19,663 nt of DNA from a virus (Duplodnaviria > Heunggongvirae > Uroviricota > Caudoviricetes), in the IMG/VR virus record IMGVR_UViG_2695420792_000006, positions 1-19,663 of that record. One strand, written 5' to 3'. Both the position numbers and the translations under genes were made by a program. Below the pieces are notes generated by a model. The model ran no database searches. It was not told the DNA's origin and saw nothing but the letters and a program-made list of their open reading frames with translations. Below, one piece after another: positions 4,047 through 19,663 of this stretch. The stretch's first letter is position 1. Every line of letters begins with the position of its first letter.

Positions 4047-4171
4047 CAGTTAATTCCTCCACTGGTATATTTTTCTTTCGCGTAATCAATAACCTCTTGA
4101 AAAAGGTTGTCTATAATTAACTTTCCGGTTTCAGTCAGGTATTCAGTATGTTGATTAATCCCGATAGCATT

Positions 4172-4405: not shown

Positions 4406-4604
4406 TTGTTATTTCCCGTATGCTTTACGCAGAAATAAGCAGGCAATATGCATGTAATTTTCACCGTGTTGTGCAATAAGACAGGCTGTTTTGTGTGATG
4501 TCTTATGTTTTATAAAAGTCATAATAAAGGCTCCAGTGGATTAAGTGTGTGATAATCCCCGGCGATTAAGCCGTAATATATTGTTCAGCGATAATATGTT
4601 TTAT

Positions 4605-4805: not shown

Positions 4806-4810
4806 TGTTG

Positions 4811-5482: not shown

Positions 5483-5507
5483 ATGAGCCTCCTGTTGTTT
5501 TAATTTT

Positions 5508-5536
5508 ACAATAGCTAAAGCGTTTGGTTATGTCAA
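5508..5536 (-). promoter_or_regulatory. pL-like promoter (-35 TTGACA, 17-bp spacer, -10 TATTGT) with overlapping operator-like motif
   Basis: Minus-strand reading gives TTGACA(17 nt)TATTGT upstream of the 223-aa gene. The 13-mer TCAATCGCTATAG (5533-5545) overlaps the -35 and recurs at 6448-6460 beside the cro-like promoter. Confidence 0.5.
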
Positions 5537-5658
5537 TCGCTATAGCTATGCATTTTGAGCAGCAAAGAACAGATTATGAGAGAAATGAGACGATACGTAG
5601 GGAGTTGAGATACAGGAAAGTAGAGCAGCTGCGCAATACAGCTGCCGGTGATGTTGAC

Positions 5659-6363: not shown

Positions 6364-6387
6364 AAGTCCTCCTTTTTCTGCCCTTTT

Positions 6388-6416
6388 AGTGTATCGCCTT
6401 AGCGATATATACACAA
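6388..6416 (-). promoter_or_regulatory. pRM-like promoter for the repressor (-35 TTGTGT, 17 bp, -10 TACACT) overlapping a palindromic operator
   Basis: Read on the minus strand. The palindrome TATCGCcttaGCGATA (6392-6407) lies in the spacer. Confidence 0.4.
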
Positions 6417-6432
6417 ACCGCTTTTCCGCACA

Positions 6433-6461
6433 TTGTAATCGCTTTGATCAATCGCTATAGT
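6433..6461 (+). promoter_or_regulatory. pR-like promoter for the cro-like gene (-35 TTGTAA, 17 bp, -10 TATAGT) with AATCGCT operator repeats in the spacer
   Basis: TTGTAA at 6433-6438, 17-nt spacer, TATAGT at 6456-6461, about 25 nt upstream of the cro-like ATG. Direct repeats AATCGCT occur at 6437-6443 and 6450-6456. Confidence 0.45.
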
Positions 6462-6486
6462 GAATGGAATCAGGTTGGAGGTCGAT

Positions 6487-6750
6487 ATGAAAAATGAAGG
6501 TATAGCCAAGGCTGTAGATATTGCGGGAAGCCAGATTGCTCTGGCTAGGCGTTGTGGTCGCGCGCAGTCAACAATTTGCGACTGGCTGAATGGGAAGAAA
6601 AAAATTTCTCCTGAATTTGTTCCGTCTCTGGTTAAGGCGGTCGATGGGAAAGTCCAGGCGTATGAATTTCGTCCTGATCTACCGGAGCTTTTCCCACACC
6701 CAAGCTTAGCGCACACAGAAGATGGAGTGTGCGAAGGAGATAAACAGTGA
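6487..6750 (+). CDS. Cro/YdaS-like HTH regulator
   Basis: ATG at 6487 with a GGAGG Shine-Dalgarno at 5-nt spacing. HTH segment (IAGSQIALARRCGRAQSTICDWLNG). Divergent from the cI-like repressor, the classic immunity-region layout. Confidence 0.7.
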   Translation: MKNEGIAKAVDIAGSQIALARRCGRAQSTICDWLNGKKKISPEFVPSLVKAVDGKVQAYEFRPDLPELFPHPSLAHTEDGVCEGDKQ

Positions 6751-7454
6751 ATACAGCAATTTTTACCGACAAAGCATCTATGACCAGCGTTGAGATTGCT
6801 GAGTTGGTTGGTAAGCGCCATGACAATGTAAAACGCACTATTGAAACATTAGCCAAAGGTGGTGTTGTCCGGTCTCCTCAAATTGAGGTTTCCGAAAGAA
6901 TCAATAACTTAGGGTTTAAAGTTCAACACGAGCATTATCTGTTTGAAGGCGAACAAGGCAAACGCGACAGCATTATTGTTGTCGCACAGCTTTGCCCTGA
7001 ATTCACCGCCCGCCTGGTAGACCGCTGGCGTGAACTGGAAGAACAGATCCGTAAGCCAATGAGCGAAATCGAAATGGTTGCCGCGATGGCGCTCGAGGCT
7101 GTTCGCCAACAAAGACGTCTTGAGCATGTGGAAGAGAAAGTCATCCACGTTACCGAAACAGTCGAGCAAATCAAAAGAGGCACCATACGCGATGGTTATG
7201 CAGGCTACCGTCAGCTGGTGGCGAAAACGGGTATGTCAGATGCGAAATGTCGCAATCTGGTGAACGCATATCAGATCCCTACTGACACCCATGAATTTAT
7301 GACGCCGGATGGATTGTTGTCTCGTCGCGCGATTGTTGCAGTAGAACCCTTCATGTCTGCTTTTCATCGCATGATGAGTGAAGCAGAACCACGGGGTACT
7401 CGCTGGTATCACCCGAAGATGGGGCTGTTCCAGGCGCTGGGCTGGCAGGGGTAA
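6747..7454 (+). CDS. Rha-family phage regulatory protein
   Basis: N-terminal Rha-type motif (MTSVEIAELVGKRHDNVKRTIETL). GTG at 6747 has an AAGGAG Shine-Dalgarno at 7-nt spacing and overlaps the cro-like stop. An alternative ATG start lies at 6780. Confidence 0.65.
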   Translation: MNTAIFTDKASMTSVEIAELVGKRHDNVKRTIETLAKGGVVRSPQIEVSERINNLGFKVQHEHYLFEGEQGKRDSIIVVAQLCPEFTARLVDRWRELEEQIRKPMSEIEMVAAMALEAVRQQRRLEHVEEKVIHVTETVEQIKRGTIRDGYAGYRQLVAKTGMSDAKCRNLVNAYQIPTDTHEFMTPDGLLSRRAIVAVEPFMSAFHRMMSEAEPRGTRWYHPKMGLFQALGWQG

Positions 7455-7473
7455 TTATGCTCACAGGTAACAC

Positions 7474-7653
7474 ATGCAAGTACTCAATCGCTGGTTCCGT
7501 GATGGAAGAGGGCGTCGCGTCCACGTTATACGCTGGGAGCCTGAAACACAGCGGGTTATTTACCTGCGTGATGGTTATCCGGATGAGTGCTTCAGCCCAC
7601 TATGGTTGTTTCGTCGTGATTTTGTTGAGTGCGAAGCGCCACCAGCATATTGA
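7474..7653 (+). CDS. Small hypothetical protein (59 aa) in an alternate frame to the track ORF
   Basis: My translation of ATG 7474 gives MQVLNRWFRDGRGRRVHVIRWEPETQRVIYLRDGYPDECFSPLWLFRRDFVECEAPPAY, which looks protein-like. It falls below the track's length cut-off. The overlapping N-terminal 157 aa of the 340-aa track ORF look non-native. Confidence 0.35.
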   Translation: MQVLNRWFRDGRGRRVHVIRWEPETQRVIYLRDGYPDECFSPLWLFRRDFVECEAPPAY

Positions 7654-7927
7654 TTCTGCAATTCCGGGACGTTACACTGCTCAGGCACCTTATAAAGCGG
7701 GTGCCGGGATTGGCGTCCTGAAACTTACAGAAGAGCATAACCGCGCTCATGCGGTTTTTTCATGTCATGAGCATTGCTACGCCCAAATTATGGTGGGGCG
7801 TGCAGGGGCATCGCAAGATGCGCCGGGTTCTTCTGTGACCGGTTACGCCAACCCTGTACGTCTCACCACCTCTGTGATTGGCGTCCCATGTGGTGAGTGT
7901 TTTAAACTCACAGAAGGGGCTGTCATC

Positions 7928-8479
7928 ATGACTACTCTCCCAACCATCGCTCAACCTGAACTTTGCATTGTTGCTGGCAAAGTGGTTACTTCTTCTCTGT
8001 CTGTTGCCTGTTATTTCCGCAAACAACACAAAAATGTCATTCAAAAAATTGCGTCTCTTGAATGCTCTGCCGAATTTACTGAGCTGAATTTTCAGCCCAG
8101 TGAATACACCGACGCATCAGGCCGCAAACTCCCTTGTTACCAAATCACCCGCGACGGTTTTGCATTTCTTGCTATGGGTTTCACGGGTAAACGTGCTGCC
8201 CGGTTCAAAGAAGCATACATCAATGCCTTTAACCAGATGGAGAGGTGCTTATCAGGAGTTGGTGCGGCTGATATGCCATCTGTCGCACAAAACGCCAGAG
8301 GCGTATACCTGCATTTGCGAGAAATCCACCAAATCTGGACAAGCCAGCTTTATCCCATGCTTAAGGCTGTTGAATCTCCGCTGGCTAGCAAACTGTACGA
8401 CCGTGTAGGTGATGCTGTTTTTGGTGCTGCACTTGTTGATTCCAGACTGAACGGTTCTGACAAGGAGGCGCACCCATGA
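7928..8479 (+). CDS. Rha-family phage regulatory protein (second copy)
   Basis: Rha-type core from MTTLPTIAQPELCIVAGKVVTSSLSVACYFRKQHKNVIQKI ... TRDGFAFLAMGFTGKRAARFKEAYINAFNQME. ATG at 7928 preceded by GAAGGGG. The upstream 7457-7927 part of the track ORF is probably not part of this protein. Confidence 0.6.
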   Translation: MTTLPTIAQPELCIVAGKVVTSSLSVACYFRKQHKNVIQKIASLECSAEFTELNFQPSEYTDASGRKLPCYQITRDGFAFLAMGFTGKRAARFKEAYINAFNQMERCLSGVGAADMPSVAQNARGVYLHLREIHQIWTSQLYPMLKAVESPLASKLYDRVGDAVFGAALVDSRLNGSDKEAHP

Positions 8480-8709
8480 TTCGCCGCGTCGTTAGTTCCC
8501 TGTATCACCGATACAACCACTGCCCCCGTGTGGGGCAGTGGTTCACCACCAGCAACGGTCACGTTCTGCGGGTTTGCCTGGTCAATACAGAAAGCCAGAA
8601 GGTTGTCTGCCAGGTTCAGGGATGTACTCATACCCTGAGTTATCCGCTGGTGGCGTTTCAGTCCGGAAAAATGTTTAAACGCCTGGGAGGTGGCTATGCG
8701 TCCGTCTGA
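8476..8709 (+). CDS. Small Cys/His-containing hypothetical protein
   Basis: 77 aa. Perfect AAGGAGG Shine-Dalgarno at 7-nt spacing. ATGA overlap with the preceding Rha gene stop. Confidence 0.45.
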   Translation: MIRRVVSSLYHRYNHCPRVGQWFTTSNGHVLRVCLVNTESQKVVCQVQGCTHTLSYPLVAFQSGKMFKRLGGGYASV

Positions 8710-9589
8710 TCTTCTGCTCGATTTTGGACATCCGGTTGCTTATTACCCTGGGCTCGTTAAATACATGGGAAGTCCGCACGCTGTTATTTTCTTTGGTCAG
8801 ATTTTTTACTGGCAGGATAAAGCACATGCAGCGGAAGGCGTACATAAAACGCGTGAAGAGATACAACACGAAACAGGACTTACATTTGAACAACAGGCTG
8901 TAGCGCGTAAGTATCTTGTGTCCAGAGGCATTTTGGTTGAAACCAACAAGCGTCTTGAGCACAAAATGTTCTACCGTATAGATTGTGAGCGCCTTAATGA
9001 AATTATCAATGAAAACAATCAGTTTTCCCGAAATGGGGAAACCCGTTTTCGGGAAACTGTAAAACCCAATTTCGCGGAGGAGGGAAAGCCTTCACCGCGG
9101 ACACGGGAAACCCCTCGCCGCGGAGAAGGGAAAACCAATTTCGATCTTACAGAGAATACAACAGAGATTACTTCAGAGAATACTACAGAGAGTAAAAACA
9201 CTATTGGCGCATCCGCTGACGCGTCTGCACCAGCACGTTCTGCCCGACAGGAATATTCACCGGAATTTGAACAGGCCTGGCAGGAATATCCCAAACGTGC
9301 TGGTGGTAATTCCAAGTCAGCAGCCTTCAAAGCCTGGAAAGCCCGTATCAGGGAAGGTGTGACACCCGAAACCATGCTCAACGGTGTGAAACGCTATGCC
9401 GCCTGGGTGCGTGTCTCAGGAAATACCGGCACCCAGTTCGTGAAGCAGGCATCGACGTTCTTTGGCCCCGATCGGCACTTTGACGAATCCTGGCAACAGT
9501 CAGCAGCTCCCGGAGGTGGGCGGGGCAAAAGCCTCCCGATCTCGGGATTCAGTGAACAGGACTACGGCTCAACGAACTTCAACTGGTGA
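8696..9589 (+). CDS. Phage replication initiation protein (O-like replisome organiser) carrying internal iteron-like repeats
   Basis: ATG at 8696 with GGAGG 5 nt upstream. Lies directly upstream of the DnaC-like and DnaB-like genes. Contains a repeat-rich internal DNA segment (9023-9190), as the lambda O gene contains ori. Confidence 0.6.
   Translation: MRPSDLLLDFGHPVAYYPGLVKYMGSPHAVIFFGQIFYWQDKAHAAEGVHKTREEIQHETGLTFEQQAVARKYLVSRGILVETNKRLEHKMFYRIDCERLNEIINENNQFSRNGETRFRETVKPNFAEEGKPSPRTRETPRRGEGKTNFDLTENTTEITSENTTESKNTIGASADASAPARSARQEYSPEFEQAWQEYPKRAGGNSKSAAFKAWKARIREGVTPETMLNGVKRYAAWVRVSGNTGTQFVKQASTFFGPDRHFDESWQQSAAPGGGRGKSLPISGFSEQDYGSTNFNW
9023..9190. repeat. Iteron-like repeats (CGGGAAA/GGGAAAnC, about 6 copies) followed by an AT-rich tandem 24-bp repeat; candidate origin of replication
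   Basis: Copies at about 9023-9030 (inverted), 9035-9044, 9050-9057, 9082-9088, 9104-9111 and 9128-9135. Then cagagaatacaacagag / cagagaatactacagag at 9150-9190. Confidence 0.45.
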
Positions 9590-9606
9590 TTTTGTGGGGT
9601 GTGAAA

Positions 9607-10497
9607 ATGATTAATTTCCTGAACAAACAACACATGCAACACGACAAAGCGCAATTACTCAACCGCAGTGCGGAGCTGGAGGAGGAGATGCAGTTTGCCC
9701 GTGCCGGGAAGCGTCCGTGGCGCTGTGAGCACTGGCTGGCAAGCGATGAGACTGCAGAGTGTGAGAAGCACGGAAAATATACTCGTCTGGTGTTGAAAGG
9801 GCCAGATATTCGCGGAGAAACCATCAAACGGGTATCCGGATGTCCGCGCTGCATCGCAGAAGAACTGGATCACGTGCATGACGAATTACGCGCCCTGAAG
9901 GTTCGTGAATTACTCGATCAGGCCGGTATTGCCCGCCGCTTTGAGAACTGCGAGTTTGAGAACTATCAGGCTGTGAATGCCGGGGCTCAGCGGAATCTTG
10001 ATGCCTGCCAGCGTTATGTCGATGCCTGGAAGGATCACCTCGCGGCGGGTACCAGCATGATCATGATTGGCAATTGCGGTACCGGGAAAAATCACCTGGC
10101 TGTATCAATGGCAAAAAATATTATTCGCCACCACCTGGCGACCGTCGAAATTACGGATGTTATGCGACTGACCCGCGCTGTGAAAAATACATGGCGTCAC
10201 AATTCTGAACGCACTGAAGATGAAGTTATTGACCATTTTGTATCACTGGACCTGCTCATCATTGATGAAGTCGGTGTTCAGTTTGGCACGCCTGCCGAGA
10301 TAACCATCCTGCAGGAAATCATCAACGCGCGTTACGAAAGTATTCTGCCAACAATTCTGATCAGCAACCTGACGTTTGACCAGCTTAAGGAGTCCATTGG
10401 TGAGCGAATTGTAGATCGCGTTACTGACGGCGGGCGTAACCGCCTGGTGTTTGGCTGGGAGAGCTACCGGGCAAATATCGGAGGTGTTGCCGCATGA
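9607..10497 (+). CDS. DnaC-like helicase loader (AAA+ ATPase, IstB/DnaC family) with N-terminal Cys4 zinc-binding region
   Basis: Walker A motif GNCGTGKNHLAVS, Walker B motif LLIIDEVG, and an N-terminal four-Cys cluster (CEHW...CEKHG...CPRC). Start may be the GTG at 9586 (track) or the ATG at 9607. Confidence 0.8.
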   Translation: MINFLNKQHMQHDKAQLLNRSAELEEEMQFARAGKRPWRCEHWLASDETAECEKHGKYTRLVLKGPDIRGETIKRVSGCPRCIAEELDHVHDELRALKVRELLDQAGIARRFENCEFENYQAVNAGAQRNLDACQRYVDAWKDHLAAGTSMIMIGNCGTGKNHLAVSMAKNIIRHHLATVEITDVMRLTRAVKNTWRHNSERTEDEVIDHFVSLDLLIIDEVGVQFGTPAEITILQEIINARYESILPTILISNLTFDQLKESIGERIVDRVTDGGRNRLVFGWESYRANIGGVAA

Positions 10498-11894
10498 CCA
10501 GCCAGAACAACCCGGCATGGCGTAACGATGACCTGGAAGGTGCGGTGATTGGCGCGTTTTTTCTGCGTGGGGCTGATCCGGAAGTGATGGATATTCTGGC
10601 CACGCTTCCGGCGGATGTATTTTTCGTGCGTCAGTACCGGGATATTTACGCGGGGATTTGCAGACAGGCCCGCGTATCCGGCGTCATTGACCCCGTGCTG
10701 CTGTGCAATGAGATGCCGGAACTTGCCCCGGTGATTACCGACACCGGGCGCAAAACCTGGGTGAAGTCTTCACTGGAGCACTATGTTGCAGCGCTGCGAC
10801 GCAATGCCGCACTGCGCGATGCAGAAAAAACACTGACTGAAGCATTACAGAATTTACGTGATGCACATACCTGCGAAGCGGCAGAAGATGCCCTGAAGGA
10901 TGCGCAGAACATGATGGCCTCACTGTCGACCGGAAAGGGCGTCATTCAGCCGGTTCACATTGATGATGTCCTTCCGGAAGTGGTGGGCCGTGTTGAATGC
11001 CGGAATCAGGGACTGGAGAAATCCAGGGCGCTGATGACCGGTATTGATGAACTGGACGCAAAAACGGGCGGTATGGAGCCCGGAGACCTGGTATTCATTG
11101 CCGCCCGTCCTTCGATGGGGAAAACAGAACTTGCGCTGGACATCATCGACAAGGTGACTGAGCAGGGGCATGGCGTGCTTCTGTTCACCATGGAGATGGC
11201 GAACATCCAGATTGGTGAACGTATGGTGTCTGCAGCAGGGGGAATGCCGGTATCCCGTCTTAAGTCTGTTGCCCGTTTTGAAGATGAAGACTGGGCGCGT
11301 TTCTCACAGGGCGTGGGACGAATGACGGGGCGTAATATCTGGATGGTGGACCAGGCAAATCTGACCATTGATGAGATATGTGCAACCACGAGGTACCACC
11401 GGATGAAGCATCCGGAAACGGCGCTGGTGGTGGTCGATTACCTCGGCCTGATTAAAACCCGCAGCACGGGGCGTCACGACCTTGCGGTGGGGGAAATCTC
11501 AAAGGGACTTAAAAGCCTGGCAAAATCCGGCGGTTTTCCGCTGATTGCTCTGAGCCAGCTCTCCCGCGGCGTGGAATCCAGACCCAATAAACGTCCCATG
11601 AACTCAGACCTGAAAAACTCCGGGGAAATCGAGGCTGATGCCGACATCATTCTGATGCTTTACAGGGATGAGGTGTATAACCCGGATACACAGGCGAGAG
11701 GCATAGCAGAAATCAACATCACGAAACAGCGTAATGGCACGCTCGGGACCATTTACCGGCGTTTTCATAACGGACATTTTCTGCCTGTGGACCAGGAGAG
11801 TGCCCGGGTTCTTTCCACACCCATGACGCCGGGCAATCCGCGCAGATACAGCAATAACCGCATGTCGGGCAGTAAAGCGGAGCGTTTATTTTGA
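10494..11894 (+). CDS. DnaB-family replicative DNA helicase
   Basis: DnaB-type motifs GIDELDAKTGGMEPGDLVFIAARPSMGKTELALDI (Walker A), VVVDYLGLI, and LSQLSR(G)VE. ATGA overlap with the loader gene. Confidence 0.85.
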   Translation: MTSQNNPAWRNDDLEGAVIGAFFLRGADPEVMDILATLPADVFFVRQYRDIYAGICRQARVSGVIDPVLLCNEMPELAPVITDTGRKTWVKSSLEHYVAALRRNAALRDAEKTLTEALQNLRDAHTCEAAEDALKDAQNMMASLSTGKGVIQPVHIDDVLPEVVGRVECRNQGLEKSRALMTGIDELDAKTGGMEPGDLVFIAARPSMGKTELALDIIDKVTEQGHGVLLFTMEMANIQIGERMVSAAGGMPVSRLKSVARFEDEDWARFSQGVGRMTGRNIWMVDQANLTIDEICATTRYHRMKHPETALVVVDYLGLIKTRSTGRHDLAVGEISKGLKSLAKSGGFPLIALSQLSRGVESRPNKRPMNSDLKNSGEIEADADIILMLYRDEVYNPDTQARGIAEINITKQRNGTLGTIYRRFHNGHFLPVDQESARVLSTPMTPGNPRRYSNNRMSGSKAERLF

Positions 11895-12148
11895 ATAACA
11901 GAACAGCCACTGTTTCACCGGAACAACTTCGTCGCCAGGCGCAGGAGATGCTTCGTTGTGCTGAACAGATGGAAAAAATGAGCGTGGCAAAGGATACGCT
12001 CCGCAAGCAGCTTACTCCGGCGCTTCGTGATCTGCTGCAGGCAAAACACCGCACACAAAAGGCGGTGGATGAGCTGGTGGATTGCGTGGCGGAACTGGAA
12101 GGCAAGGTAAGCCAGTTTGAAACTCTGGTGAAGGAGTTTACTGCGTGA
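11891..12148 (+). CDS. Small coiled-coil hypothetical protein (start uncertain, track start is TTG)
   Basis: 85-aa ORF overlapping the helicase stop. Charged, helical-looking sequence. No family recognised. Confidence 0.35.
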   Translation: MNNRTATVSPEQLRRQAQEMLRCAEQMEKMSVAKDTLRKQLTPALRDLLQAKHRTQKAVDELVDCVAELEGKVSQFETLVKEFTA

Positions 12149-12193
12149 TGGCTGAATTTTTTCTCCTGTGTTCATGCAATATCGTTCGCTGAG

Positions 12194-13189
12194 GTGACCG
12201 TGAGAGCATTGTTGACTCCTGAAATTGCCCCGCGAATGGGGATTGTATTGTTCAGACCCGGTTCAGAGCTGATGCCCCTGTTTATGCAGGGGCGTGTCCT
12301 GCTGGAGCCTGAGCCGGAACGTTATTCATCTTTCGCCAGTGGTGCCGTTCCGGCGGCATCACAACCGCTGGCGGATGATCCTGCCGTTCGGGCCGTGTTC
12401 CGCAATGAGGCAGTGATCCGTCGTGCTGGTGGCGTGGAATGTCTTGAAAGCTGGTTACTTCGTGAAAAAGGCTGCCAGTGGCTTCATTCCGACTGGCACA
12501 GCGAGAACATGACCACAATGCGACACGCGCCGGGCGCAATCCGTCTGTGCTGGCACTGCGATAACCAGCTGCGCGATCAGTTCACGGAACGGCTGGAATC
12601 AATGGCAACGGATAACTGTGCCCGCTGGGTGTTGTCTGTTGTGCGTCGGGATCTCGGTTTTGATGACAGTCACGTTGTGACAATGCCGGAACTGTGCTGG
12701 TGGCTGGTTCGTAATAATCTGGCGGATGCCTTACCGGAAAGCGCAGCCCGTAAGGCACTGAGATTACCGAATCCTGTTGTGCCGTCTGTCACCCGGGAAA
12801 GTGACCTTGTGCCTTCGGTTCCTGCCACCAGCATCATCCAGGATAAGGCGAAAAAGGTGCTGGCGCTGAAAGTGGATCCGGAGTCGCCGGAGTCTTTTAT
12901 GTTACGCCCAAAACGTCGCCGCTGGGTTAATGAAAAGTACACGCGCTGGGTTAAGACACAGCCGTGCGCATGTTGTGGAAAGCCTGCTGATGATCCCCAC
13001 CACCTGATAGGCCACGGTCAGGGGGGAATGGGTACAAAAGCGCATGACCTCTTTGTGTTGCCTTTGTGCAGAAAGCATCACGACGAGCTGCATGCGGATA
13101 CCGTGGCATTTGAAGAGAAGTATGGCTCCCAGCTGGAGCTGATATTTCGTTTTATCGATCGCGCGCTGGCAACTGGCGTGCTGGCCTGA
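12194..13189 (+). CDS. DUF968-like phage protein with C-terminal HNH-like zinc-finger motif
   Basis: C-terminus CACCGKPADDPHHLIGHGQGGMGTKAHDLFVLPLCRKHHDELH matches an HNH-type CxxC...HH...CxxxHH pattern. Lies immediately upstream of Q, as ydfU-like genes do in E. coli cryptic prophages (recollection). Track start is GTG; the true start is unresolved. Confidence 0.55.
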   Translation: MTVRALLTPEIAPRMGIVLFRPGSELMPLFMQGRVLLEPEPERYSSFASGAVPAASQPLADDPAVRAVFRNEAVIRRAGGVECLESWLLREKGCQWLHSDWHSENMTTMRHAPGAIRLCWHCDNQLRDQFTERLESMATDNCARWVLSVVRRDLGFDDSHVVTMPELCWWLVRNNLADALPESAARKALRLPNPVVPSVTRESDLVPSVPATSIIQDKAKKVLALKVDPESPESFMLRPKRRRWVNEKYTRWVKTQPCACCGKPADDPHHLIGHGQGGMGTKAHDLFVLPLCRKHHDELHADTVAFEEKYGSQLELIFRFIDRALATGVLA

Positions 13190-13206
13190 TTTTGTGGATA
13201 AAGTTT

Positions 13207-13572
13207 ATGCGTGATATTCAGATGGTTCTGGATCGTTGGGGTGCATGGGCGGCGAGTGATAGTTCTGGGGTAGACTATTCGCCTATAGCTGCTGGGTTTA
13301 AAGGGCTTCTTCCCTATACAAGCAAAACACGTCAGGCTTGTTCAGATAGTGATGCATTAATTATTGAAGGTTGTCTTGCTCGTCTAAAGCAAAAAAGACC
13401 TGAAGAACACTCGCTTCTTGTTGCCCATTACCTATACGGTATCTCTAAAAGAAAGCTCGCCAAAGCTCGTAAAAAGGATGAGAAACTAATACGCATTGAG
13501 ATACAGATGGCTGAGGGTTTTGTTGAAGGCTGTCTCTCAATGCTTGATCTTTGTCTGGAAATGGACCAATAG
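13207..13572 (+). CDS. Late-gene antiterminator Q (QuuD/phage 21-type Q family)
   Basis: MRDIQMVLDRWGAWAA...GFKGLLP...EGCLARLK...LEMD closely resembles the roughly 125-aa Q antiterminators of E. coli lambdoid prophages as I recall them. ATG at 13207 preferred over the TTG track start. Confidence 0.8.
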   Translation: MRDIQMVLDRWGAWAASDSSGVDYSPIAAGFKGLLPYTSKTRQACSDSDALIIEGCLARLKQKRPEEHSLLVAHYLYGISKRKLAKARKKDEKLIRIEIQMAEGFVEGCLSMLDLCLEMDQ

Positions 13573-13583
13573 ACTACCAGAAT

Positions 13584-13620
13584 AGAAACTGCCGCTCAGC
13601 TTTGCGGATCGGCAGTTTCT
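13584..13620. repeat. Perfect 11-bp inverted repeat (AGAAACTGCCG / CGGCAGTTTCT, 15-nt loop) between convergent genes
   Basis: Lies between the Q stop and the stop of the minus-strand 140-aa gene, whose 3' end it overlaps. No U-tract on either side. Confidence 0.5.
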
Positions 13621-14018
13621 GATGGTGTAATGTTACGCGCAGATGTTTCGAGTATAGATTCCCTTCCGATTGATACCAAAATTTCGATTGTTCTTGCTTT
13701 AGCCTGCATCAATGTTGATTTTATTTCAGGACTTAAGTGGTCAGATCGTAACTGCTTCTCAATCTCAGCCAAATCACGCTTGCATTTTGCTCTTTTGGCT
13801 GCGTCCTCTGGAGATTCGAAACCATGCCTCGAAATAAACCAATTCATGACGTAAGTTAAAGTTGCCGCAACACCCGGTACCAATGCGTAGGCTACAGTTC
13901 GCCACACGCTATTAGGGTCGGTTAAAATCGCGCTAACAAGAACACTTAGAATTGCTCCCCAGCCACCAGTTGAAAGGGTAGCTTTTCCTGTACTTAGACC
14001 TTTAGTTTGAGAATTCAT
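13596..14018 (-). CDS. Cassette gene 3: 2-TM membrane protein with cytoplasmic coiled-coil tail
   Basis: 140 aa. Hydrophobic helices WGAILSVLVSAIL and VAYALVPGVAATLTYVMNWFI, followed by a charged C-terminal region. Start overlaps the stop of the upstream gene. Confidence 0.6.
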   Translation of the reverse strand: MNSQTKGLSTGKATLSTGGWGAILSVLVSAILTDPNSVWRTVAYALVPGVAATLTYVMNWFISRHGFESPEDAAKRAKCKRDLAEIEKQLRSDHLSPEIKSTLMQAKARTIEILVSIGRESILETSARNITPSETADPQS

Positions 14019-14284
14019 TTTCGTTTTGAATTCTCCGCAATTGCCTCTTCAATGAGGGTTGTTAGCATTTTTCCCTTTTTACTTGGAACTTTTATTACTA
14101 GCGTCTTAGTCACTCCGGATTCTTCATCGTGATATCGGAATTCGAAGACTTTTGTAGGGAATAGTCGACGCCAAAGCAAGGCTGACGCTGAATAGCAAAA
14201 ACGACTAAAGGCAGGGATGATCATTATCACCCCAATCCAGAAGATCAGTTGTGCTATCTGCATGTTCAGTGTCACTTTTGTCAA
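14015..14284 (-). CDS. Cassette gene 2: small membrane protein (1-2 TM)
   Basis: 89 aa. Hydrophobic N-terminus (IAQLIFWIGVIMIIPAF) and a Lys-rich soluble tail. 4-nt overlaps with both neighbouring genes. Confidence 0.55.
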   Translation of the reverse strand: MTKVTLNMQIAQLIFWIGVIMIIPAFSRFCYSASALLWRRLFPTKVFEFRYHDEESGVTKTLVIKVPSKKGKMLTTLIEEAIAENSKRK

Positions 14285-15150
14285 GCCTCAGCAGGGCGTT
14301 TTCGTTTTACTTTGGTTATAGCATACTTGGTTGTGGCATTTCGCGCAGTGAAAGTTTTTATAGTTTTTAGCTCAACAACAAACAAATCTTCTTTTGTAAA
14401 ACTGATGATTCCATTTTGAACTTGGTGTATAAACAACTGATCTTCAAATGTAACAGCATGCTCCTCGCCTAAATAATCGATTCTCCAACCCTTTGTACCC
14501 TCGAAGTTGATCTGTACGAATCTAACATTGACTTCTTCTACAGACTCTTCTTTTTCAAGTAGTGTACCTCTAGGCAGCGGTTTGATCTCTTCAGTTTCAC
14601 TTCCTTCAAGACGAACGACTTCTTCGCCTTCATCATTTAGCACCTTAAATACTGCACCTTGTTTGCCGTCTAATGGTGCACGAACTACATTCACAAGGGC
14701 ATCACGGACTTCAGGATCTGTTACTAACTTAGCCACTGAGTCATGGCAAACAATTTCTTCCCCTTCAAGTTCAAGAACAGATTCTTCTGTTCCTGCCCGT
14801 TTTGTTACCGAAATTACTTTCTTGCTGCCCAGTTGGCGGATTAGTGATAATGCTGGAGCTCCAATAGCAGCCCCGGCTATCCCTGTTAGGCCAATCACTT
14901 TTGCGACGTCGACGGCATGAGGAACAAGCTCCATCATCGTATAGGATACGCCGAGTGATCCCGCTTCTGCTGGATTAGTAACCATTAACTTAACGGTTTG
15001 TTGACCGTCATTAAGTCTTTTATCAGCTGCTGATATTAAATCTGCCATCGAACCTATGGAGATGCTTAATGTTTTGGCATCAATTTTATGCTGTGCTAAT
15101 TCGTTATCCTCTGCATCGTAGAAGATCTGAAAAGAAGTTGTTTTAGTCAC
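14281..15150 (-). CDS. Cassette gene 1: 289-aa hypothetical protein with a central hydrophobic/Gly-Ala segment and acidic stretches
   Basis: No family recognised. Central hydrophobic segment VAKVIGLTGIAGAAIGAPALSLI and acidic runs (LELEGEEIV, EGSETEE). Track start is GTG with a weak Shine-Dalgarno, so the start is uncertain. Locally AT-rich. Confidence 0.55.
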   Translation of the reverse strand: MTKTTSFQIFYDAEDNELAQHKIDAKTLSISIGSMADLISAADKRLNDGQQTVKLMVTNPAEAGSLGVSYTMMELVPHAVDVAKVIGLTGIAGAAIGAPALSLIRQLGSKKVISVTKRAGTEESVLELEGEEIVCHDSVAKLVTDPEVRDALVNVVRAPLDGKQGAVFKVLNDEGEEVVRLEGSETEEIKPLPRGTLLEKEESVEEVNVRFVQINFEGTKGWRIDYLGEEHAVTFEDQLFIHQVQNGIISFTKEDLFVVELKTIKTFTARNATTKYAITKVKRKRPAEA

Positions 15151-15394
15151 TCTTTGCTCGCTATGTCTTGACTTTTTTCCATAAAATACCTTTTTTGGGT
15201 ATAAAAAACATTATCGCGGTCCGCAAAAATTGCGTTACTGTGTTAAGAGTGGTTACTTCGCCACACAGCTTAAACCCGCCGTCGAGCGGTTTTTTTGTAC
15301 CTGTAAACCTGGTGCAGTACAGTAAACACGCTGGTGGCGGTGAATACCTGTCTTTCAGCTTGCTGGCTTTTTCGACAAGAGTTATTGGTATGTC

Positions 15395-15622
15395 ATGTCA
15401 ACCAGAAGGGAAAAAGACATGCTAAAACAGCAAGATATGACAGAAACCGCCGCCGCAGTCCTTCATTTCTTACCTGCTGACAAGTGGGTAACGCCACGCA
15501 TGATGACGAGAACTACAGGAGTAAGCGAAGCCCGGTGCCAGTTAATACTGACTCAGTTAGTTCTGGCGGGTCTGGCGAAGGATAACGGCGGGTACGGGAA
15601 TAAATTCAGACGCTGCCAGTAA
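15395..15622 (+). CDS. Small hypothetical protein, possibly winged-helix DNA-binding (alternative start ATG 15419)
   Basis: 75-aa ORF upstream of the methyltransferase. The internal ATG at 15419 has an AGAAGGGA Shine-Dalgarno. Helix-rich segment VSEARCQLILTQLVLAGLAKDNGG. Confidence 0.4.
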   Translation: MSTRREKDMLKQQDMTETAAAVLHFLPADKWVTPRMMTRTTGVSEARCQLILTQLVLAGLAKDNGGYGNKFRRCQ

Positions 15623-15772
15623 TGGCGGTTTCCTGCTGTGAAAATGGGCGGCTGGTGGGTGTTGGTAGCACCTGCCAGCCATTCGCTCATGCTTACTGGT
15701 CACAAGCGAACCATGGCCCACTGCTTTAGCGCAAAAGCAGAGTGAGCCTACCAGAGTTACGCTTACTGATCC

Positions 15773-16830
15773 ATGAAAAATACTGTAAAAATAAACAGTG
15801 TTGATTTAATCAACGCTGATTGCCTGCATTTTATTCAGTCCCTGCCTGATGATTCCATTGACCTGATTGTTACCGATCCGCCGTACTTCAAGGTGAAACC
15901 CAACGGCTGGGACAATCAGTGGAAAGGGGACGAAGATTACCTTAAGTGGCTGGACCACTGTCTTGCGCAGTTCTGGCGGGTGCTGAAACCTGCAGGAAGT
16001 CTATACCTGTTCTGTGGGCATCGCCTGGCATCTGACACCGAAATCATGATGCGTGAGCGGTTTAACGTGCTGAACCATATCATCTGGGCAAAGCCGTCCG
16101 GACGCTGGAACGGGTGTAACAAGGAAAGCCTGCGGGCGCATTTTCCGGCCACAGAGCGCATTCTGTTCGCGGAACATTATCAGGGGCCGTATCGCCCGAA
16201 AGATGATGGCTGTGAGGCGAAGGGCAGGGCACTGAAACAGCATGTGATGGCCCCGCTGATTGCTTACTTTCGTGATGCGCGCGCTGCCCTGGGGATAACG
16301 GCAAAACAGATTGCAGATGCCACAGGAAAGAAAAACATGGTGTCGCACTGGTTCAGTGCCAGTCAGTGGCAGCTGCCGAACGAAAGCGATTATCTGAAAT
16401 TACAGGCCCTGTTTGCCCGGGTGGCAGAAGAGAAGCATCAGCGCGGTGAACTGGAATGGCCCCACCACCAGCTGGTGGATACGTATACGTCACTGAACCG
16501 GCAGTATGTGGAGCTGCAGAGTGAATATAAGCATCTGCGGCGGTATTTTGGTGTGACGGCGCAGGTGCCGTACACGGATGTGTGGACATATAAACCGGTG
16601 CAGTTCTATCCCGGGAAACATCCGTGCGAAAAACCGGCAGAAATGCTGCAGCAGATAATCAGCGCAAGCAGTCGTCCGGGTGACCTGGTTGCAGATTTTT
16701 TATGGGCTCAGGTTCAATGGTAAAAGCGGCACTGGCGCTCGGGCGTCGTGCGATTGGCGTTGAACTGGAGGCCGGACGTTTTGAGCAGACAGTCAGGGAA
16801 GTTCAGGATTTCATCGTTCGAAACGGATGA
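15773..16830 (+). pseudogene. DNA methyltransferase (N6-adenine/N4-cytosine class, DPPY motif) interrupted by a -1 frameshift in a T6 run
   Basis: Motif IV DPPY (IVTDPPYF). The reading frame stops at 16723 (ADFLWAQVQW*). Adding one T to the run at 16696-16701 would read ADFFMGSGSMVKAALALGRRAIGVELEAGRFEQTVREVQDFIVRNG*, restoring the FxGxG SAM-binding motif and ending at 16830. Confidence 0.65.
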
Positions 16831-16870
16831 GATTGCAGAATTAATTACGGACCGTTATTATCCGGCTCCC

Positions 16871-16946
16871 GGCCCTTTAGCTCAGTGGTGAGAGCGAGCG
16901 ACTCATAATCGCCAGGTCGCTGGTTCAAATCCAGCAAGGGCCACCA
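16871..16946 (+). tRNA. tRNA with CAT anticodon, Ile2 (lysidine)-type (ileZ-like); elongator Met not excluded
   Basis: Manual cloverleaf: acceptor GGCCCTT/AAGGGCC, D-arm GCTC-AGTGGTGA-GAGC, anticodon loop CTCATAA, T-loop TTCAAAT, 3' CCA encoded. Resembles E. coli ileX-type sequence as recalled. Confidence 0.8.
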
Positions 16947-17046
16947 TCACAAACCGCCATTAGCTTATCAGGAAGAGCAGACGACACCATAACAGGGTTG
17001 TTGGTGCGGGGGCGGGTCCCCGATGGCGGTCCATTATCGGTATTCT

Positions 17047-17123
17047 GCGTTGTTAGCTCAGCCGGACAGAGCAATTGCCTTCTAAGCAATCGGTCAGTGG
17101 TTCGACTCCACTACAACGCGCCA
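17047..17123 (+). tRNA. tRNA-Arg (anticodon TCT, reads AGA)
   Basis: Manual cloverleaf: acceptor GCGTTGT/ACAACGC, anticodon stem ATTGC/GCAAT, loop CTTCTAA, T-loop TTCGACT, CCA encoded. Confidence 0.8.
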
Positions 17124-17136
17124 CACTTATTTTCCA

Positions 17137-17160
17137 GGCTCGCTTCGGCGGGCCTTTTTT
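17137..17160 (+). terminator. Rho-independent terminator after the tRNA pair
   Basis: GGCTCGC-TTCG-GCGGGCC stem-loop (one G-U wobble) followed by TTTTTT. Confidence 0.6.
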
Positions 17161-17292
17161 GTATCTGCGCCACGCCCGGCGCATATCAACCACAGAGCCT
17201 TTCGGGGGTGAGCTTACGGAGTGGTCAGTGTGACTTTCTCTGTGGGCAGATCGCTCCCGGGCGTTGGCTCACCCACCCAAAGGAACGTCACG

Positions 17293-17724
17293 ATGTTTGG
17301 AATCTTCAAAAAGAAAACCCGCAGAGCGGCAGCGGAAATTAAAAAGTTTGAGAAACGCGATCTGGCACAGGCGGTGATTAACGCTGCATACCTGGTGGCC
17401 TATGCAGATGGTGAATGCGAGGCATCCGAGAAAGCGAAGATCGAACAGGTCTTACGTAATCAGCCTGCGTTGTCTGCGTTTACCTCGGAAATTAATGCGA
17501 TTAGCGCAACCATTATCGGTCAGCTGGATACGAACTTTAAAATTGGTCGTCGTGCGGCGTTACGTGAGATCGAGGATGTGAAACACGATACGCGTGAAGC
17601 GGAAGATGTGCTGGATGTGGCGGTGGCCATTGCGGAGGCAGACGGCGAAATTGAGCCGGAAGAGCGCAAGGTGCTGGAAGAGATTGCCGGTGTTCTGGGG
17701 CTTCGTCTGGAGAATCACCTGTGA
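17293..17724 (+). CDS. TerB-like (tellurite-resistance TerB family) protein
   Basis: 143 aa. ATG at 17293 with an AAGGA Shine-Dalgarno. Sequence AVINAAYLVAYADGECEASEKAKIEQVL ... DVAVAIAEADGEIEPEERKVLEEIAGVLGL matches the TerB helical repeat pattern as I recall it. Confidence 0.6.
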   Translation: MFGIFKKKTRRAAAEIKKFEKRDLAQAVINAAYLVAYADGECEASEKAKIEQVLRNQPALSAFTSEINAISATIIGQLDTNFKIGRRAALREIEDVKHDTREAEDVLDVAVAIAEADGEIEPEERKVLEEIAGVLGLRLENHL

Positions 17725-17852
17725 CGGTAAAACTGCGCCTGGCTGTGGCTGCACTCCTGCTGTTTCTGGTGGTGATGGTGGATTTCACCAGCAGAATCAT
17801 GTCGGTGCTGGCGGATGGGGGGCTGGTCTGCGGCATTGTGGTATTGCTGTAG
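17721..17852 (+). CDS. Putative small hydrophobic peptide (43 aa, GTG start) coupled to the TerB-like gene
   Basis: GTG overlaps the TerB stop (GTGA). GGAGAA Shine-Dalgarno 6 nt upstream. Translation VTVKLRLAVAALLLFLVVMVDFTSRIMSVLADGGLVCGIVVLL has two hydrophobic segments. Not in the supplied track (short, non-ATG start). Confidence 0.3.
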   Translation: MTVKLRLAVAALLLFLVVMVDFTSRIMSVLADGGLVCGIVVLL

Positions 17853-18202
17853 CCGGTGATAAAAAGAAACAGCCTGCATAATGCTTGATTTTTTTGTTTG
17901 CTGTTTATTAAAAACACTTCTGCATGGTGAATCCCCCTGTGCGGTGGGGCAATCAGCAAGAAGGAATATGGGGTAATCGCGGATTCAGGTGCTGATACTG
18001 AATTCACCGGGAGGCACCCGGCACCATGCTTTGCCACAAAATTGTTGTTTCTGTTTTTCTCAAATTATCATCATTATCCCTTTATTTCCGGCTGCGCATG
18101 GCGTGGCCTTTTTTTTACGACCAGCCACTGGCAGATGACCATCCTGTGATTTGATTCCGCTTCCGGCTTTTTAACTCTGTTCCTGTACACGGGAGAAATT
18201 CG

Positions 18203-18583
18203 ATGTCGATTAAACATTATGATGTTGTCAGGGCGGCGTCGCCGTCAGACCTTGCGGAAAAGCTGACACAAAAACTGAAGGAGGGGTGGCAGCCATTTGG
18301 CAGCCCGGTGGCCATCACGCCTTATACTCTGATGCAGGCCATTGCGGCGGAAGGTGATGTCACCACACCTGTGTTGGTGAAGCCGTCGGATGGAGAAGGC
18401 ACAGTAATCAGCGCCAGCCGGGTGTTCTCATCGGTGATAGATATGCCGGCAGGGCGGGGTCATGTCACCCTGACGTTTAATGTGTCGTCGGCCGGTGCGA
18501 ACAACTGGACGCCGACAACGTACATCAGTGATTTACTGGTTGTGGTCATGAAAAAATCCACGGCAGGGATCAGTATCAGCTGA
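18203..18583 (+). CDS. Hypothetical phage protein (N-terminus resembles small phage-associated DUF-type domains)
   Basis: 126-aa ORF with upstream GGGAGAAAT ribosome-binding region. N-terminus [33 protein letters not shown]. Followed by a strong terminator. Confidence 0.5.
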
Positions 18584-18602
18584 CGGTTTATTAACCCGGA
18601 CG

Positions 18603-18626
18603 GGCACCTCAGGAGGTGCCTTTTTT
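18603..18626 (+). terminator. Rho-independent terminator
   Basis: GGCACCTC/GAGGTGCC stem-loop followed by TTTTTT. Confidence 0.65.
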
Positions 18627-18651
18627 ATTGACTGAAAACAAAGAGGTAATC

Positions 18652-19275
18652 ATGCGGCATTTATACGCAACGATATTATTGTTTACTACCCTGCTGGCAG
18701 GAATTGCCTTTCCTGCACAGGCTGAAAGCGGACACGGTGCATTTTCCGTGGGATATGCTCAGGTTCACCCGGGCGGCGTACCGGCATTGTCCGGTACCGG
18801 TGCGCGTGCAGGTGATTTAAAAGGGATTAATGTGAAATACCGTTATGAGTTCACGGATCACCTGGGCGGCATTGTCGCGCTGAGTTATGCATCGGTGAAG
18901 AAAAGTGACACGATGAAGACGGGTGAAAATACCTTCCATTATGAAAGCCTGCGCGGTCGTTATGTCAGTCTGATGGCCGGCCCTGTCTGGCAGCTCAGTG
19001 AGCGGGTCAGTCTCTATGGCATGGCCGGGATGGCGTACACCCGCTGGTCTGACAGTGTTCAGGATTACCGGCGTGATGAAGTGAAACCGGGGTATGTGAA
19101 GGAGACCACCACCGCCAGTGATGGCCATACTGCGCGTCATCTGTCGCCGGCCTGGAATGCCGGGATTCAGTTCAGTCCCGTAGAGACGGTGGTTATTGAC
19201 CTTGCTTATGAAGGTTCCGCCAGTGGCGACTGGCGCACTGACGGCTTCATCGTGGGTATCGGCTATAAATTCTGA
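18652..19275 (+). CDS. lom: Lom/Ail/PagC/OmpX-family outer-membrane beta-barrel protein
   Basis: Signal peptide (MRHLYATILLFTTLLAGIAFPAQA). Alternating beta-strand pattern. C-terminal aromatic end (IGYKF). Position immediately upstream of stf as in lambda. ATG at 18652 preferred over the GTG inside the terminator hairpin. Confidence 0.85.
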   Translation: MRHLYATILLFTTLLAGIAFPAQAESGHGAFSVGYAQVHPGGVPALSGTGARAGDLKGINVKYRYEFTDHLGGIVALSYASVKKSDTMKTGENTFHYESLRGRYVSLMAGPVWQLSERVSLYGMAGMAYTRWSDSVQDYRRDEVKPGYVKETTTASDGHTARHLSPAWNAGIQFSPVETVVIDLAYEGSASGDWRTDGFIVGIGYKF

Positions 19276-19301
19276 TTAGCCAGGTAACACAGTGTTATGA
19301 C

Positions 19302-19329
19302 AGCCCGCCGGTTCAGGCGGGCTTTTTTG
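19302..19329 (+). terminator. Rho-independent terminator
   Basis: Perfect 8-bp stem AGCCCGCC/GGCGGGCT with 6-nt loop, followed by TTTTTT. Confidence 0.65.
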
Positions 19330-19339
19330 TGGGGTGAAT

Positions 19340-19663
19340 ATGGCAGTAAAGATTTCAGGTGTACTGAAAGACGGCACAGGAAAACCGGTAGAGAACTGTA
19401 CCATTCAACTGAAAGCCAGACGGACCAGCAGCACGGTGGTGGTGAACACGGTGGCCTCTGAAAATCCGGATGAAGCCGGTCGTTACAGCATGGACGTTGA
19501 GTACGGTCAGTACAGCGTCATTCTGTTGGTGGAAGGATTCCCGCCGTCACATGCCGGGACCATCACCGTGTATGAAGATTCTCAACCGGGGACGCTGAAT
19601 GATTTTCTCGGTGCCATGTCGGAGGATGACGTCCGGCCGGAGGCACTGCGCCGTTTTGAACTG
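19340..19663 (+). CDS. stf: Side tail fibre protein Stf, N-terminal part (continues beyond the window)
   Basis: MAVKISGVLKDGTGKPVENCTIQLKA...VASENPDEAGRYSMDVEYGQYSVIL...FPPSHAGTITVYEDSQPGTLNDFL closely matches the lambda Stf N-terminus as recalled. Confidence 0.8.
   Translation, partial: MAVKISGVLKDGTGKPVENCTIQLKARRTSSTVVVNTVASENPDEAGRYSMDVEYGQYSVILLVEGFPPSHAGTITVYEDSQPGTLNDFLGAMSEDDVRPEALRRFEL

What the first reader, a model, noticed from the sequence alone, without database searches (positions are those of the whole stretch)
13573..18651. Lysis and morphogenesis block absent: Q is followed by about 5 kb of cargo and then directly by lom and stf
In lambda-like prophages Q is followed by holin, endolysin, Rz, terminase, head and tail genes through J, then lom and stf. 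Here none of those is present. The entire Q-to-lom interval is the antisense cassette, a methyltransferase, tRNAs, a TerB-like gene and one small ORF. The element is therefore a defective prophage, comparable to E. coli K-12 cryptic prophages, that has kept its immunity and replication modules and its morons. The deletion junction probably lies between 17.85 and 18.2 kb, a region with odd low-complexity T-rich sequence.
Basis: partly seen in the sequence, partly recalled or inferred. Interest (0 to 1): 0.45.

Follow-up and report, generated by a model that had tools for sequence, protein, structure and literature searches.

The report
Defective lambdoid prophage, 24-kb late-region deletion
This is an ordinary E. 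coli lambda-like prophage that lost its lysis, packaging, head and tail genes in one clean 24-kb deletion, so it can no longer make virus particles but keeps its control, replication and cargo genes.

Summary
Q ends at 13572 and lom starts at 18652, and no lysis, packaging, head or tail gene lies between them.

Window 1..18416 is 99.989% identical, without gaps, to a full-length lambdoid prophage at the yecE/yecD site of E. coli 22-245. That prophage continues into nanS-p esterase, holin, lysozyme, Rz, terminase, head and tail genes, J, lom and stf. Window 18415..19663 matches the 3' end of J, then lom and stf.

One deletion of 23,965 bp therefore explains the structure. Its breakpoint is at 18415/18416, with only 2 bp (CA) of microhomology. 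It lies inside the "small ORF" 18203..18583, which is an in-frame fusion of NanS-p residues 1-71 and J residues 1104-1158.

That stretch is a conserved STnc100-family sRNA locus, also present in intact relatives. The 5 kb of "cargo" is native to this Stx-phage-like lineage.

The fusion protein is a singleton among about 15 billion proteins, so the deletion looks private to one draft assembly (GCA_001284685.2). The window ends at a contig end inside stf, so an assembly chimera or an inter-prophage rearrangement cannot be fully excluded.

This is an ordinary, low-interest finding.

The parts
13207..13572 (+). Antiterminator Q, the last intact late-regulatory gene before the cargo region.
   Evidence: PF06530 at 1.9e-52. 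Annotated as an antiterminator Q family protein in the identical 22-245 prophage.
13596..15150 (-). Antisense 3-gene cargo cassette, convergent on Q. It encodes a 140-aa and an 89-aa ORF without family matches and a 289-aa LAPAL-motif protein that PADLOC lists as defence candidate PDC-S42.
   Evidence: NF053583 at 8.2e-60, PDC-S42 at 8.8e-33, phrog_3243 of unknown function. The same 3-gene unit sits directly after DUF968-Q in Klebsiella prophages. It is absent from PPyecE_EH1910 and Stx2_112808. The predicted fold matches no known virion protein.
15419..15622 (+). Small conserved ORF of 67 aa and unknown function.
   Evidence: phrog_331 at 2.9e-26. Annotated as hypothetical in relatives.
15773..16830 (+). 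N6/N4 DNA methyltransferase pseudogene. A -1 frameshift near 16701 in a T run lies just before the FxGSGS motif.
   Evidence: PF01555 at 1e-28. Alignment to intact phage alleles. Annotated as frameshifted in 22-245 and 2015C-3163.
16871..16946 (+). tRNA with CAT anticodon. ARAGORN calls it Met; RefSeq annotates the identical sequence as tRNA-Ile.
16954..17034 (+). Degenerate middle tRNA (approximate coordinates). No tRNA finder calls it here.
   Evidence: Alignment with the three-tRNA arrays of 2015C-3163 and Stx2_112808. Annotated as tRNA-OTHER in 2015C-3163.
17047..17123 (+). tRNA-Arg (TCT).
17293..17852 (+). TerB/TciA-like gene (17293..17724) and DUF3927/TciB-like gene (17721..17852). They occupy the slot that stx2AB holds in a related Stx phage.
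   Evidence: PF05099 at 6.8e-16 and PF13064 at 2.3e-11. phrog_632 and phrog_1470. Homology to Stx2_112808 breaks between 17171 and 17904.
17893..18073 (+). STnc100-family sRNA locus. A terminator-like hairpin follows at 18090..18108.
   Evidence: RF02076 at 102.8 bits against a gathering score of 47. Hairpin followed by a T run. Identical in the full-length relative.
18203..18583 (+). Chimeric 126-aa ORF created by the deletion. NanS-p esterase residues 1-71 (DUF1737) are fused in frame to J residues 1104-1158 (the end of the receptor-binding domain).
   Evidence: PF08410 at 2.1e-16 and PF12421 at 2.9e-17 in one ORF. Translations compared. Singleton cluster on one contig.
18415..18416 (.). Deletion breakpoint with a 2-bp CA microhomology. 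23,965 bp are missing relative to E. coli 22-245 (record positions 4706184..4730148).
   Evidence: BLAST endpoints and flank comparison. No repeat within +-600 bp of either breakpoint.
18602..18621 (+). Terminator-like hairpin downstream of the J stop codon.
   Evidence: This is a consensus scan only.
18652..19275 (+). lom (Ail/Lom outer-membrane beta-barrel protein, 207 aa).
   Evidence: PF06316 at 1.3e-49. Annotated in relatives.
19340..19663 (+). stf tail-fibre gene, first 108 codons, cut by the end of the contig.
   Evidence: PF08400 phage_tail_N. Annotated as a prophage tail fiber N-terminal domain protein in relatives.

Best explanation
The window is the left two-fifths of a lambdoid, Stx-phage-like prophage of the yecE/yecD integration site. 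It suffered a single illegitimate-recombination deletion of about 24 kb.

The deletion runs from codon 72 of the nanS-p (SASA esterase) gene to codon 1103 of tail-tip gene J. It removes most of nanS-p, DUF1378, DUF826, holin, lysozyme, Rz, two small genes, the packaging region (by inference, cos), both terminase subunits, portal, protease, decoration and capsid proteins, all tail genes, and 95% of J.

What is shown: the collinearity with a full-length prophage, the breakpoint, the in-frame fusion ORF, and the retained gene set.

What is inferred:
- The CI-type repressor carries an S24 autocleavage domain, and int, xis, the replication genes and Q are intact. The element should therefore still respond to SOS induction with excision, replication and Q-dependent late transcription. 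That transcription would now read through the methylase pseudogene, tRNAs, TerB/TciB, the sRNA region, the fusion ORF, lom and stf.
- It cannot lyse the cell, package DNA or build particles.
- It is a recently grounded prophage that still supplies immunity and cargo functions to its host.
For: - Window 1..18416 matches L001 1002..19417 at 99.989%, with 2 mismatches and 0 gaps. Window 18415..19663 matches L002 25148..26396 at 97.6%, and the first 710 bp are identical.
- The 22-245 prophage lies between the DUF72 gene (yecE) and yecD. It has the full canonical late region. A second full-length relative, 2015C-3163, does too.
- The flanks show only a CA overlap. No similarity above chance 9-11-mers occurs within +-600 bp.
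- The fusion ORF carries DUF1737 plus Ig_GpJ_C and is in frame.
- No lysis or structural families occur in any ORF of the interval.
- The left arm encodes integrase, excisionase, an HTH+S24 repressor, a cro-like protein, Rha/Ash, and DnaC-like and DnaB-like proteins.
- The junction is absent from 5,426 complete E. coli genomes and from the GTDB representative genomes. The fusion protein is a singleton among about 15 billion proteins.
- Defective lambdoid prophages with late-region defects that still excise and replicate are documented in O157 Sakai (PMC2669165).
Against: - The source is a draft assembly (contig CYEH01000019.1 of GCA_001284685.2). The window stops at the contig end only 1,248 bp past the junction.
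- The right arm (J 3' end, lom, stf) is a multi-copy repeat among E. coli prophages. It is 100% identical to a prophage at a different chromosomal site in strain HCP5S3_I4.
- From 19125 onward it differs by 5.6% from the 22-245 allele. Linkage of the right arm to the yecD side is therefore not shown.
- No read data were available to verify the junction.
- Inducibility, excision and the absence of particles are inferences, not tests.
Confidence: 0.8

Rival explanations
1. Inter-prophage rearrangement. The junction joins the left arm of the yecE prophage to the J-lom-stf end of a different lambdoid prophage in the same genome. That would imply a large chromosomal deletion or inversion rather than a deletion internal to one prophage.
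For: The right arm is a repeat found in many prophages. It is 100% identical to one next to potB in HCP5S3_I4. Its lom 3' end and stf differ by 5.6% from the 22-245 yecE prophage. The contig ends inside stf, so the downstream locus is unseen.
Against: The first 710 bp after the junction are identical to the 22-245 yecE prophage's own J and lom. Mosaic exchange of tail-fibre alleles among lambdoid prophages is common and explains the downstream divergence. An intra-element deletion is the simpler event. The breakpoints share no homology, so the usual homologous inter-prophage recombination is not at work.
Confidence: 0.1
2. Assembly artefact. The nanS-p::J join is a chimeric contig in a short-read draft, and the real prophage is full length.
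For: The assembly is a draft. The junction is seen on one contig only, and the fusion protein is a singleton. The window ends in a repeat.
Against: Graph assemblers misjoin at shared repeats of k-mer length. Here the two sides share only 2 bp, and nothing similar lies within +-600 bp. No N gap is present. The contig continues 1.25 kb past the join without mismatch to known J/lom/stf alleles.
Confidence: 0.08
3. A naturally compact element, such as a phage satellite (PICI-like), or a phage with an unusual gene order in which morphogenesis genes lie beyond stf.
For: It has int, xis, immunity and replication genes but no structural genes, which superficially resembles a satellite. The sequence to the right of stf is unseen.
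Against: It is 99.989% identical over 18.4 kb to a full-length phage. Truncated nanS-p and J genes meet at the junction. Both full-length relatives have the canonical order, and stf is followed by effector-like genes and then the host gene yecD. No capsid-remodelling or packaging-redirecting genes were found.
Confidence: 0.02

Closest known systems
Full-length yecE-site lambdoid prophages of E. coli 22-245 (NZ_AP038810.1 4687768..~4738000) and 2015C-3163, and phage PPyecE_EH1910 (LC567835.1)
   Same: The same integrase, immunity, replication and Q modules, and the same Q-to-esterase cargo region. Identity is 99.989% to 22-245 over 18.4 kb. The J-lom-stf end is also shared.
   Different: They retain the ~24 kb from nanS-p through J. 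PPyecE_EH1910 lacks the antisense cassette and has a toxin-antitoxin-like pair where the tRNAs are.
Stx2-converting phages such as Stx2_112808 (LC567830.1)
   Same: The same late-region layout: ydfU, Q, small ORF, DNA methylase, a tRNA array (Ile, Arg, Arg), a cargo slot, then the nanS-p/yjhS esterase. DNA identity is 79-85%.
   Different: The cargo slot holds TerB/TciA-like and DUF3927/TciB-like genes instead of stx2AB. There is an extra antisense cassette after Q. The late genes are deleted.
Cryptic prophages of E. coli K-12, especially Rac (also DLP12 and Qin), and the defective lambdoid prophages of O157 Sakai (PMC2669165)
   Same: Lambdoid prophages grounded by loss of late functions while keeping int, immunity and cargo. 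From my own knowledge, Rac likewise keeps lomR, stfR and tfaR after loss of the head and tail genes. Sakai prophages with such defects can still excise and replicate.
   Different: The K-12 elements are old and multiply decayed. This one differs from an intact relative by a single deletion and 2 SNPs in the left arm, so it is a very recent event. DLP12 and Qin keep their lysis cassettes (own knowledge), whereas this element lost its own.

Membership tests
Defective (cryptic) lambdoid prophage | Derived from a lambdoid temperate phage, shown by collinearity with a full-length lambdoid prophage. | tested here: met
   99.989% identity over 18,416 bp, followed by the J 3' end, lom and stf. Canonical lambdoid order in the relatives.
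Defective (cryptic) lambdoid prophage | Lacks one or more functions essential for lytic growth (lysis, packaging, head, tail). | tested here: met
   None is found between Q and lom. The window has no match to the 23,965-bp segment that holds them in 22-245. Genes to the right of stf are unseen.
Defective (cryptic) lambdoid prophage | Integrated in the chromosome at an attachment site. | tested here: inconclusive
   The window starts at the integrase stop codon. It lies 78.7 kb into a 98.4-kb contig. In 22-245 the identical integrase abuts the DUF72 (yecE) gene. The flanks of this isolate were not read.
Defective (cryptic) lambdoid prophage | Fails to yield infectious particles on induction. 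| not testable with these tools
   Needs mitomycin C induction and plaque or particle assays.
Phage satellite (PICI / cf-PICI type) | An autonomous compact element with its own packaging signal or capsid-redirecting genes, not a deletion derivative of a helper-type phage. | tested here: not met
   Truncated nanS-p and J genes meet at the junction. The rest is near-identical to a full phage. The packaging region lies in the deleted segment.
Stx-converting phage | Carries stxA and stxB between the tRNA array and nanS-p. | tested here: not met
   TerB and DUF3927 occupy that slot. The layout is Stx-phage-like, but the element is not a toxin carrier.
Rfam RF02076 STnc100 sRNA | Covariance-model score at or above the gathering score of 47 bits. 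| tested here: met
   102.8 bits over the full model 1-206 at 17893..18073. The 3' terminator part aligns poorly. Expression was not tested.
PADLOC PDC-S42 (candidate defence gene) | Match to a PDC-S42 profile. Defence activity itself is the real criterion. | tested here: inconclusive
   The profile match is 8.8e-33. PDC systems are untested candidates, and NCBIfam names the same family a putative phage structural protein. Fold searches gave no informative hit.

The most novel reading that the evidence does not exclude
The deletion may be a selected domestication step rather than plain decay. By fusing the late operon directly to lom and stf, it would turn the element into an SOS- and Q-inducible, non-lytic expression platform. 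On induction it would supply Lom, tail fibres, the TerB/TciB pair, the STnc100-type sRNA and tRNAs, and possibly a NanS-p::J receptor-binding-fragment chimera. These could serve the host or co-resident lambdoid phages, for example by donating tail fibres in trans or by blocking receptors.
Probability: 0.05. Interest if true: 0.4.

Novelty: new member of a known kind. Interest (0 to 1): 0.12.

Why it matters
It matters little beyond correct annotation. It is a cleanly resolved, very recent example of how a lambdoid prophage becomes grounded: one 24-kb illegitimate deletion, 2-bp microhomology, and 2 SNPs from an intact relative. The endpoints are mapped to the base. It could serve as a natural control for studies of prophage domestication, or for studies of which induced functions (excision, replication, late transcription) survive loss of lysis.

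It also shows that the T-rich region upstream of phage esterase genes is an sRNA locus, not a scar. And the "cargo" after Q is the normal architecture of Stx-phage-like elements.

Tried and rejected
- I searched for the exact junction in GTDB representative genomes and in 5,426 complete E. coli genomes. None had it, so no independent copy confirms it.
- I looked for repeats or homology at the breakpoints that could explain either the deletion or a misassembly. Only chance 9-11-mers turned up within +-600 bp.
- I tested whether the 289-aa protein that NCBIfam calls a "putative phage structural protein" is a hidden morphogenesis gene, which would have refuted the finding:
  - The AlphaFold model has mean pLDDT 79.3.
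  - No PDB match reaches E <= 0.001, and the only viral matches are uncharacterised proteins.
  - Its antisense position next to Q, conserved in Klebsiella prophages that have their own full lysis cassettes, marks it as cargo.
- I scanned ten further unannotated ORFs of the interval against PHROGs. There were no hits.
- The antisense cassette has no megablast match in 50,697 phage records.
- A consensus scan did not locate pR' convincingly. The number of promoter-like sites was no higher than in shuffled sequence. I only infer that 15203..15418 is the post-Q promoter/terminator region, because homology to relatives resumes there.
- I rejected the satellite reading and the unusual-gene-order reading (see the rival explanations).
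Full report
**Source and setting**

The window is the last 19,663 bases of contig CYEH01000019.1 (98,406 b) of the draft E. coli assembly GCA_001284685.2. Its right end is the contig end. It begins exactly at the stop codon of a tyrosine integrase.

The left arm encodes:
- integrase (Arm-DNA-bind_2 plus Phage_integrase)
- an excisionase (DUF1233)
- a CI-type repressor with HTH_3 and Peptidase_S24 domains
- a cro-like YdaS-family protein
- Rha and Ash/Rha regulators
- a DnaC-like IstB ATPase
- a DnaB-like helicase
- DUF968

**Check of the observation**

Q (PF06530, 1.9e-52) ends at 13572. Ail/Lom (PF06316, 1.3e-49) starts at 18652. The Stf N-terminal domain starts at 19340. The 5,079 bases in between hold the following:

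| Coordinates | Strand | Feature |
|---|---|---|
| 13596..15150 | - | antisense three-gene cassette |
| 15419..15622 | + | 67-aa phrog_331 ORF |
| 15773..16830 | + | N6/N4 methyltransferase, -1 frameshift near 16701 |
| 16871..16946 | + | tRNA(CAT) |
| ~16954..17034 | + | degenerate middle tRNA |
| 17047..17123 | + | tRNA-Arg(TCT) |
| 17293..17724 | + | TerB |
| 17721..17852 | + | DUF3927 |
| 17893..18073 | + | STnc100-family sRNA |
| 18203..18583 | + | 126-aa ORF |

No holin, endolysin, spanin, terminase, portal, capsid or tail family was detected in the annotated ORFs or in ten further mechanical ORFs.

**What happened**

Megablast against 5,426 complete E. coli genomes found a full-length relative in strain 22-245. 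Pairwise BLAST gave these results:
- Window 1..18416 aligns to that prophage with 2 mismatches and no gaps (99.989%).
- Window 18415..19663 aligns 23,965 bp further on, at the 3' end of gene J, then lom and stf. The first 710 bp are identical, and 30 mismatches follow after 19125.

In 22-245 the prophage lies between a DUF72 gene (yecE) and yecD. The missing segment there holds most of the SASA esterase (nanS-p), DUF1378, DUF826, class II holin, lysozyme RrrD, the Rz-like lysis protein, two small genes, both terminase subunits, head-tail joining protein, portal, S49 protease, decoration and major capsid proteins, FI, all tail genes, and 95% of J. A second full-length relative, 2015C-3163, has the same canonical order.

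**The breakpoint**

The two parental sequences share only the dinucleotide CA at the join (18415/18416). Within +-600 bp of either breakpoint there is nothing beyond chance 9-11-mers. This is the signature of illegitimate (microhomology) recombination. It is not homologous exchange, and it is not an IS-mediated or site-specific event.

The join is in frame. NanS-p residues 1-71 (DUF1737, 2.1e-16) are fused to J residues 1104-1158 (end of Ig_GpJ_C, 2.9e-17). This gives the 126-aa "small ORF".

That protein is a singleton cluster among about 15 billion proteins and is recorded on one contig. The junction sequence is absent from the complete E. coli genomes and from the GTDB representatives. Together with the 2-SNP distance from an intact relative, this marks a recent event private to one isolate.

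The T-rich stretch at 17.85-18.2 kb is not a scar. It is identical in the full-length relative. It matches Rfam STnc100 (RF02076) at 102.8 bits against a gathering score of 47. A terminator-like hairpin follows at 18090..18108. A 2026 preprint relates STnc100 to the PasD sRNAs, which it associates with Stx phages and esterase genes (10.64898/2026.05.13.724894).

**The "cargo" is native**

Comparison with phage PPyecE_EH1910 and with Stx2d phage Stx2_112808 shows a shared layout: ydfU, Q, small ORF, methylase, tRNAs, cargo slot, esterase. TerB and DUF3927 sit where stx2AB sits in the Stx phage; homology breaks between 17171 and 17904.

The antisense cassette (13573..15202) is an insertion relative to both phages. 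It has no megablast match in 50,697 phage records. The same three-gene unit lies convergent on DUF968-Q in Klebsiella prophages that carry complete lysis cassettes.

Its 289-aa protein matches PADLOC candidate PDC-S42 (8.8e-33). It also matches NCBIfam NF053583, named a "putative phage structural protein". That name could have contradicted the finding, so I modelled the protein (pLDDT 79.3) and searched PDB and BFVD. No solved structure reaches E <= 0.001, and the only viral matches are uncharacterised proteins. By position and conservation it is cargo, not a lambda-type morphogenesis gene. Its function remains unknown.

**Mechanism and consequences (inferred)**

The repressor has an S24 autocleavage domain, and int, xis, the replication genes and Q are intact. 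The element should therefore still derepress under SOS, excise, replicate and make Q-dependent late transcripts. Without holin, endolysin and spanin it cannot lyse the cell. Without terminase (and, by inference, cos) it cannot package DNA. Without head and tail genes it cannot build particles.

Such partly active defective lambdoid prophages are well documented in O157 Sakai (PMC2669165). From my own knowledge, the closest classical analogue is the K-12 Rac prophage, which also kept lomR, stfR and tfaR after losing the head and tail genes.

**Caveats**

The assembly is a draft, and the contig ends 1,248 bp after the junction inside stf. The J-lom-stf arm is a multi-copy prophage repeat. It is 100% identical to a prophage next to potB in strain HCP5S3_I4. 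I therefore cannot prove that the right arm is still attached to the yecD side. I also cannot exclude a chimeric contig, although a graph misjoin with only 2 bp of overlap is unlikely.

My estimates are about 0.8 for an intra-prophage deletion, 0.1 for an inter-prophage rearrangement, and 0.08 for an assembly artefact.

**Verdict**

The element is an ordinary, newly grounded lambdoid prophage: a new member of a very well-known kind, and of low interest.

Noticed in passing
window 17893..18116: A strong match to the STnc100 sRNA family (RF02076, 102.8 bits), followed by a terminator-like hairpin at 18090..18108, just upstream of the esterase gene remnant. The model's own 3' terminator aligns poorly, so the real 3' end may be the downstream hairpin.
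   Followed up: partly
window 7685..7873: isrK (RF01394, 61 bits) and C4 antisense RNA (RF01695, 80 bits) lie side by side in the immunity region, overlapping the start of the Ash/Rha gene (7583..8479). This looks like a P1/P7-type antisense-RNA control module for an antirepressor inside a lambdoid prophage that also has a CI/S24 repressor.
   Followed up: no
window 13596..15150 (- strand): A three-gene antisense cassette of 289 aa (LAPAL motif, PADLOC PDC-S42), 89 aa and 140 aa, convergent on Q. It is conserved as a unit in the same position in Klebsiella prophages (L007-L011). It is absent from related Stx phages and from all 50,697 phage records at megablast level. The predicted fold has no informative match.
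   Followed up: partly
window 17293..17852: The TerB/TciA-like and DUF3927/TciB-like gene pair occupies exactly the slot that stx2AB holds in Stx2d phage Stx2_112808.
   Followed up: partly
window 15773..16830: The DNA methyltransferase carries a -1 frameshift in a T run near 16701, just before the FxGSGS AdoMet-binding motif. The genes in 22-245 and 2015C-3163 are also annotated as frameshifted (the 22-245 sequence is identical here), so the defect predates the deletion.
   Followed up: yes
window ~16954..17034: The middle tRNA of the Stx-phage-type Ile-Arg-Arg array is degenerate here, with an enlarged anticodon region and an altered T arm. ARAGORN and Rfam do not call it. RefSeq labels the 2015C-3163 copy tRNA-OTHER.
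   Followed up: partly
window 19125..19663: A mosaic boundary inside lom. The sequence is identical to the 22-245 yecE prophage up to 19124, then 5.6% divergent through stf. It is 100% identical throughout to a prophage next to potB in strain HCP5S3_I4. This suggests tail-fibre allele exchange between prophages.
   Followed up: partly
window 13573..13620: A perfect 10-bp inverted repeat (gaaactgccg ... cggcagtttc) lies between the convergent Q gene and the antisense cassette. It is a likely bidirectional terminator.
   Followed up: no
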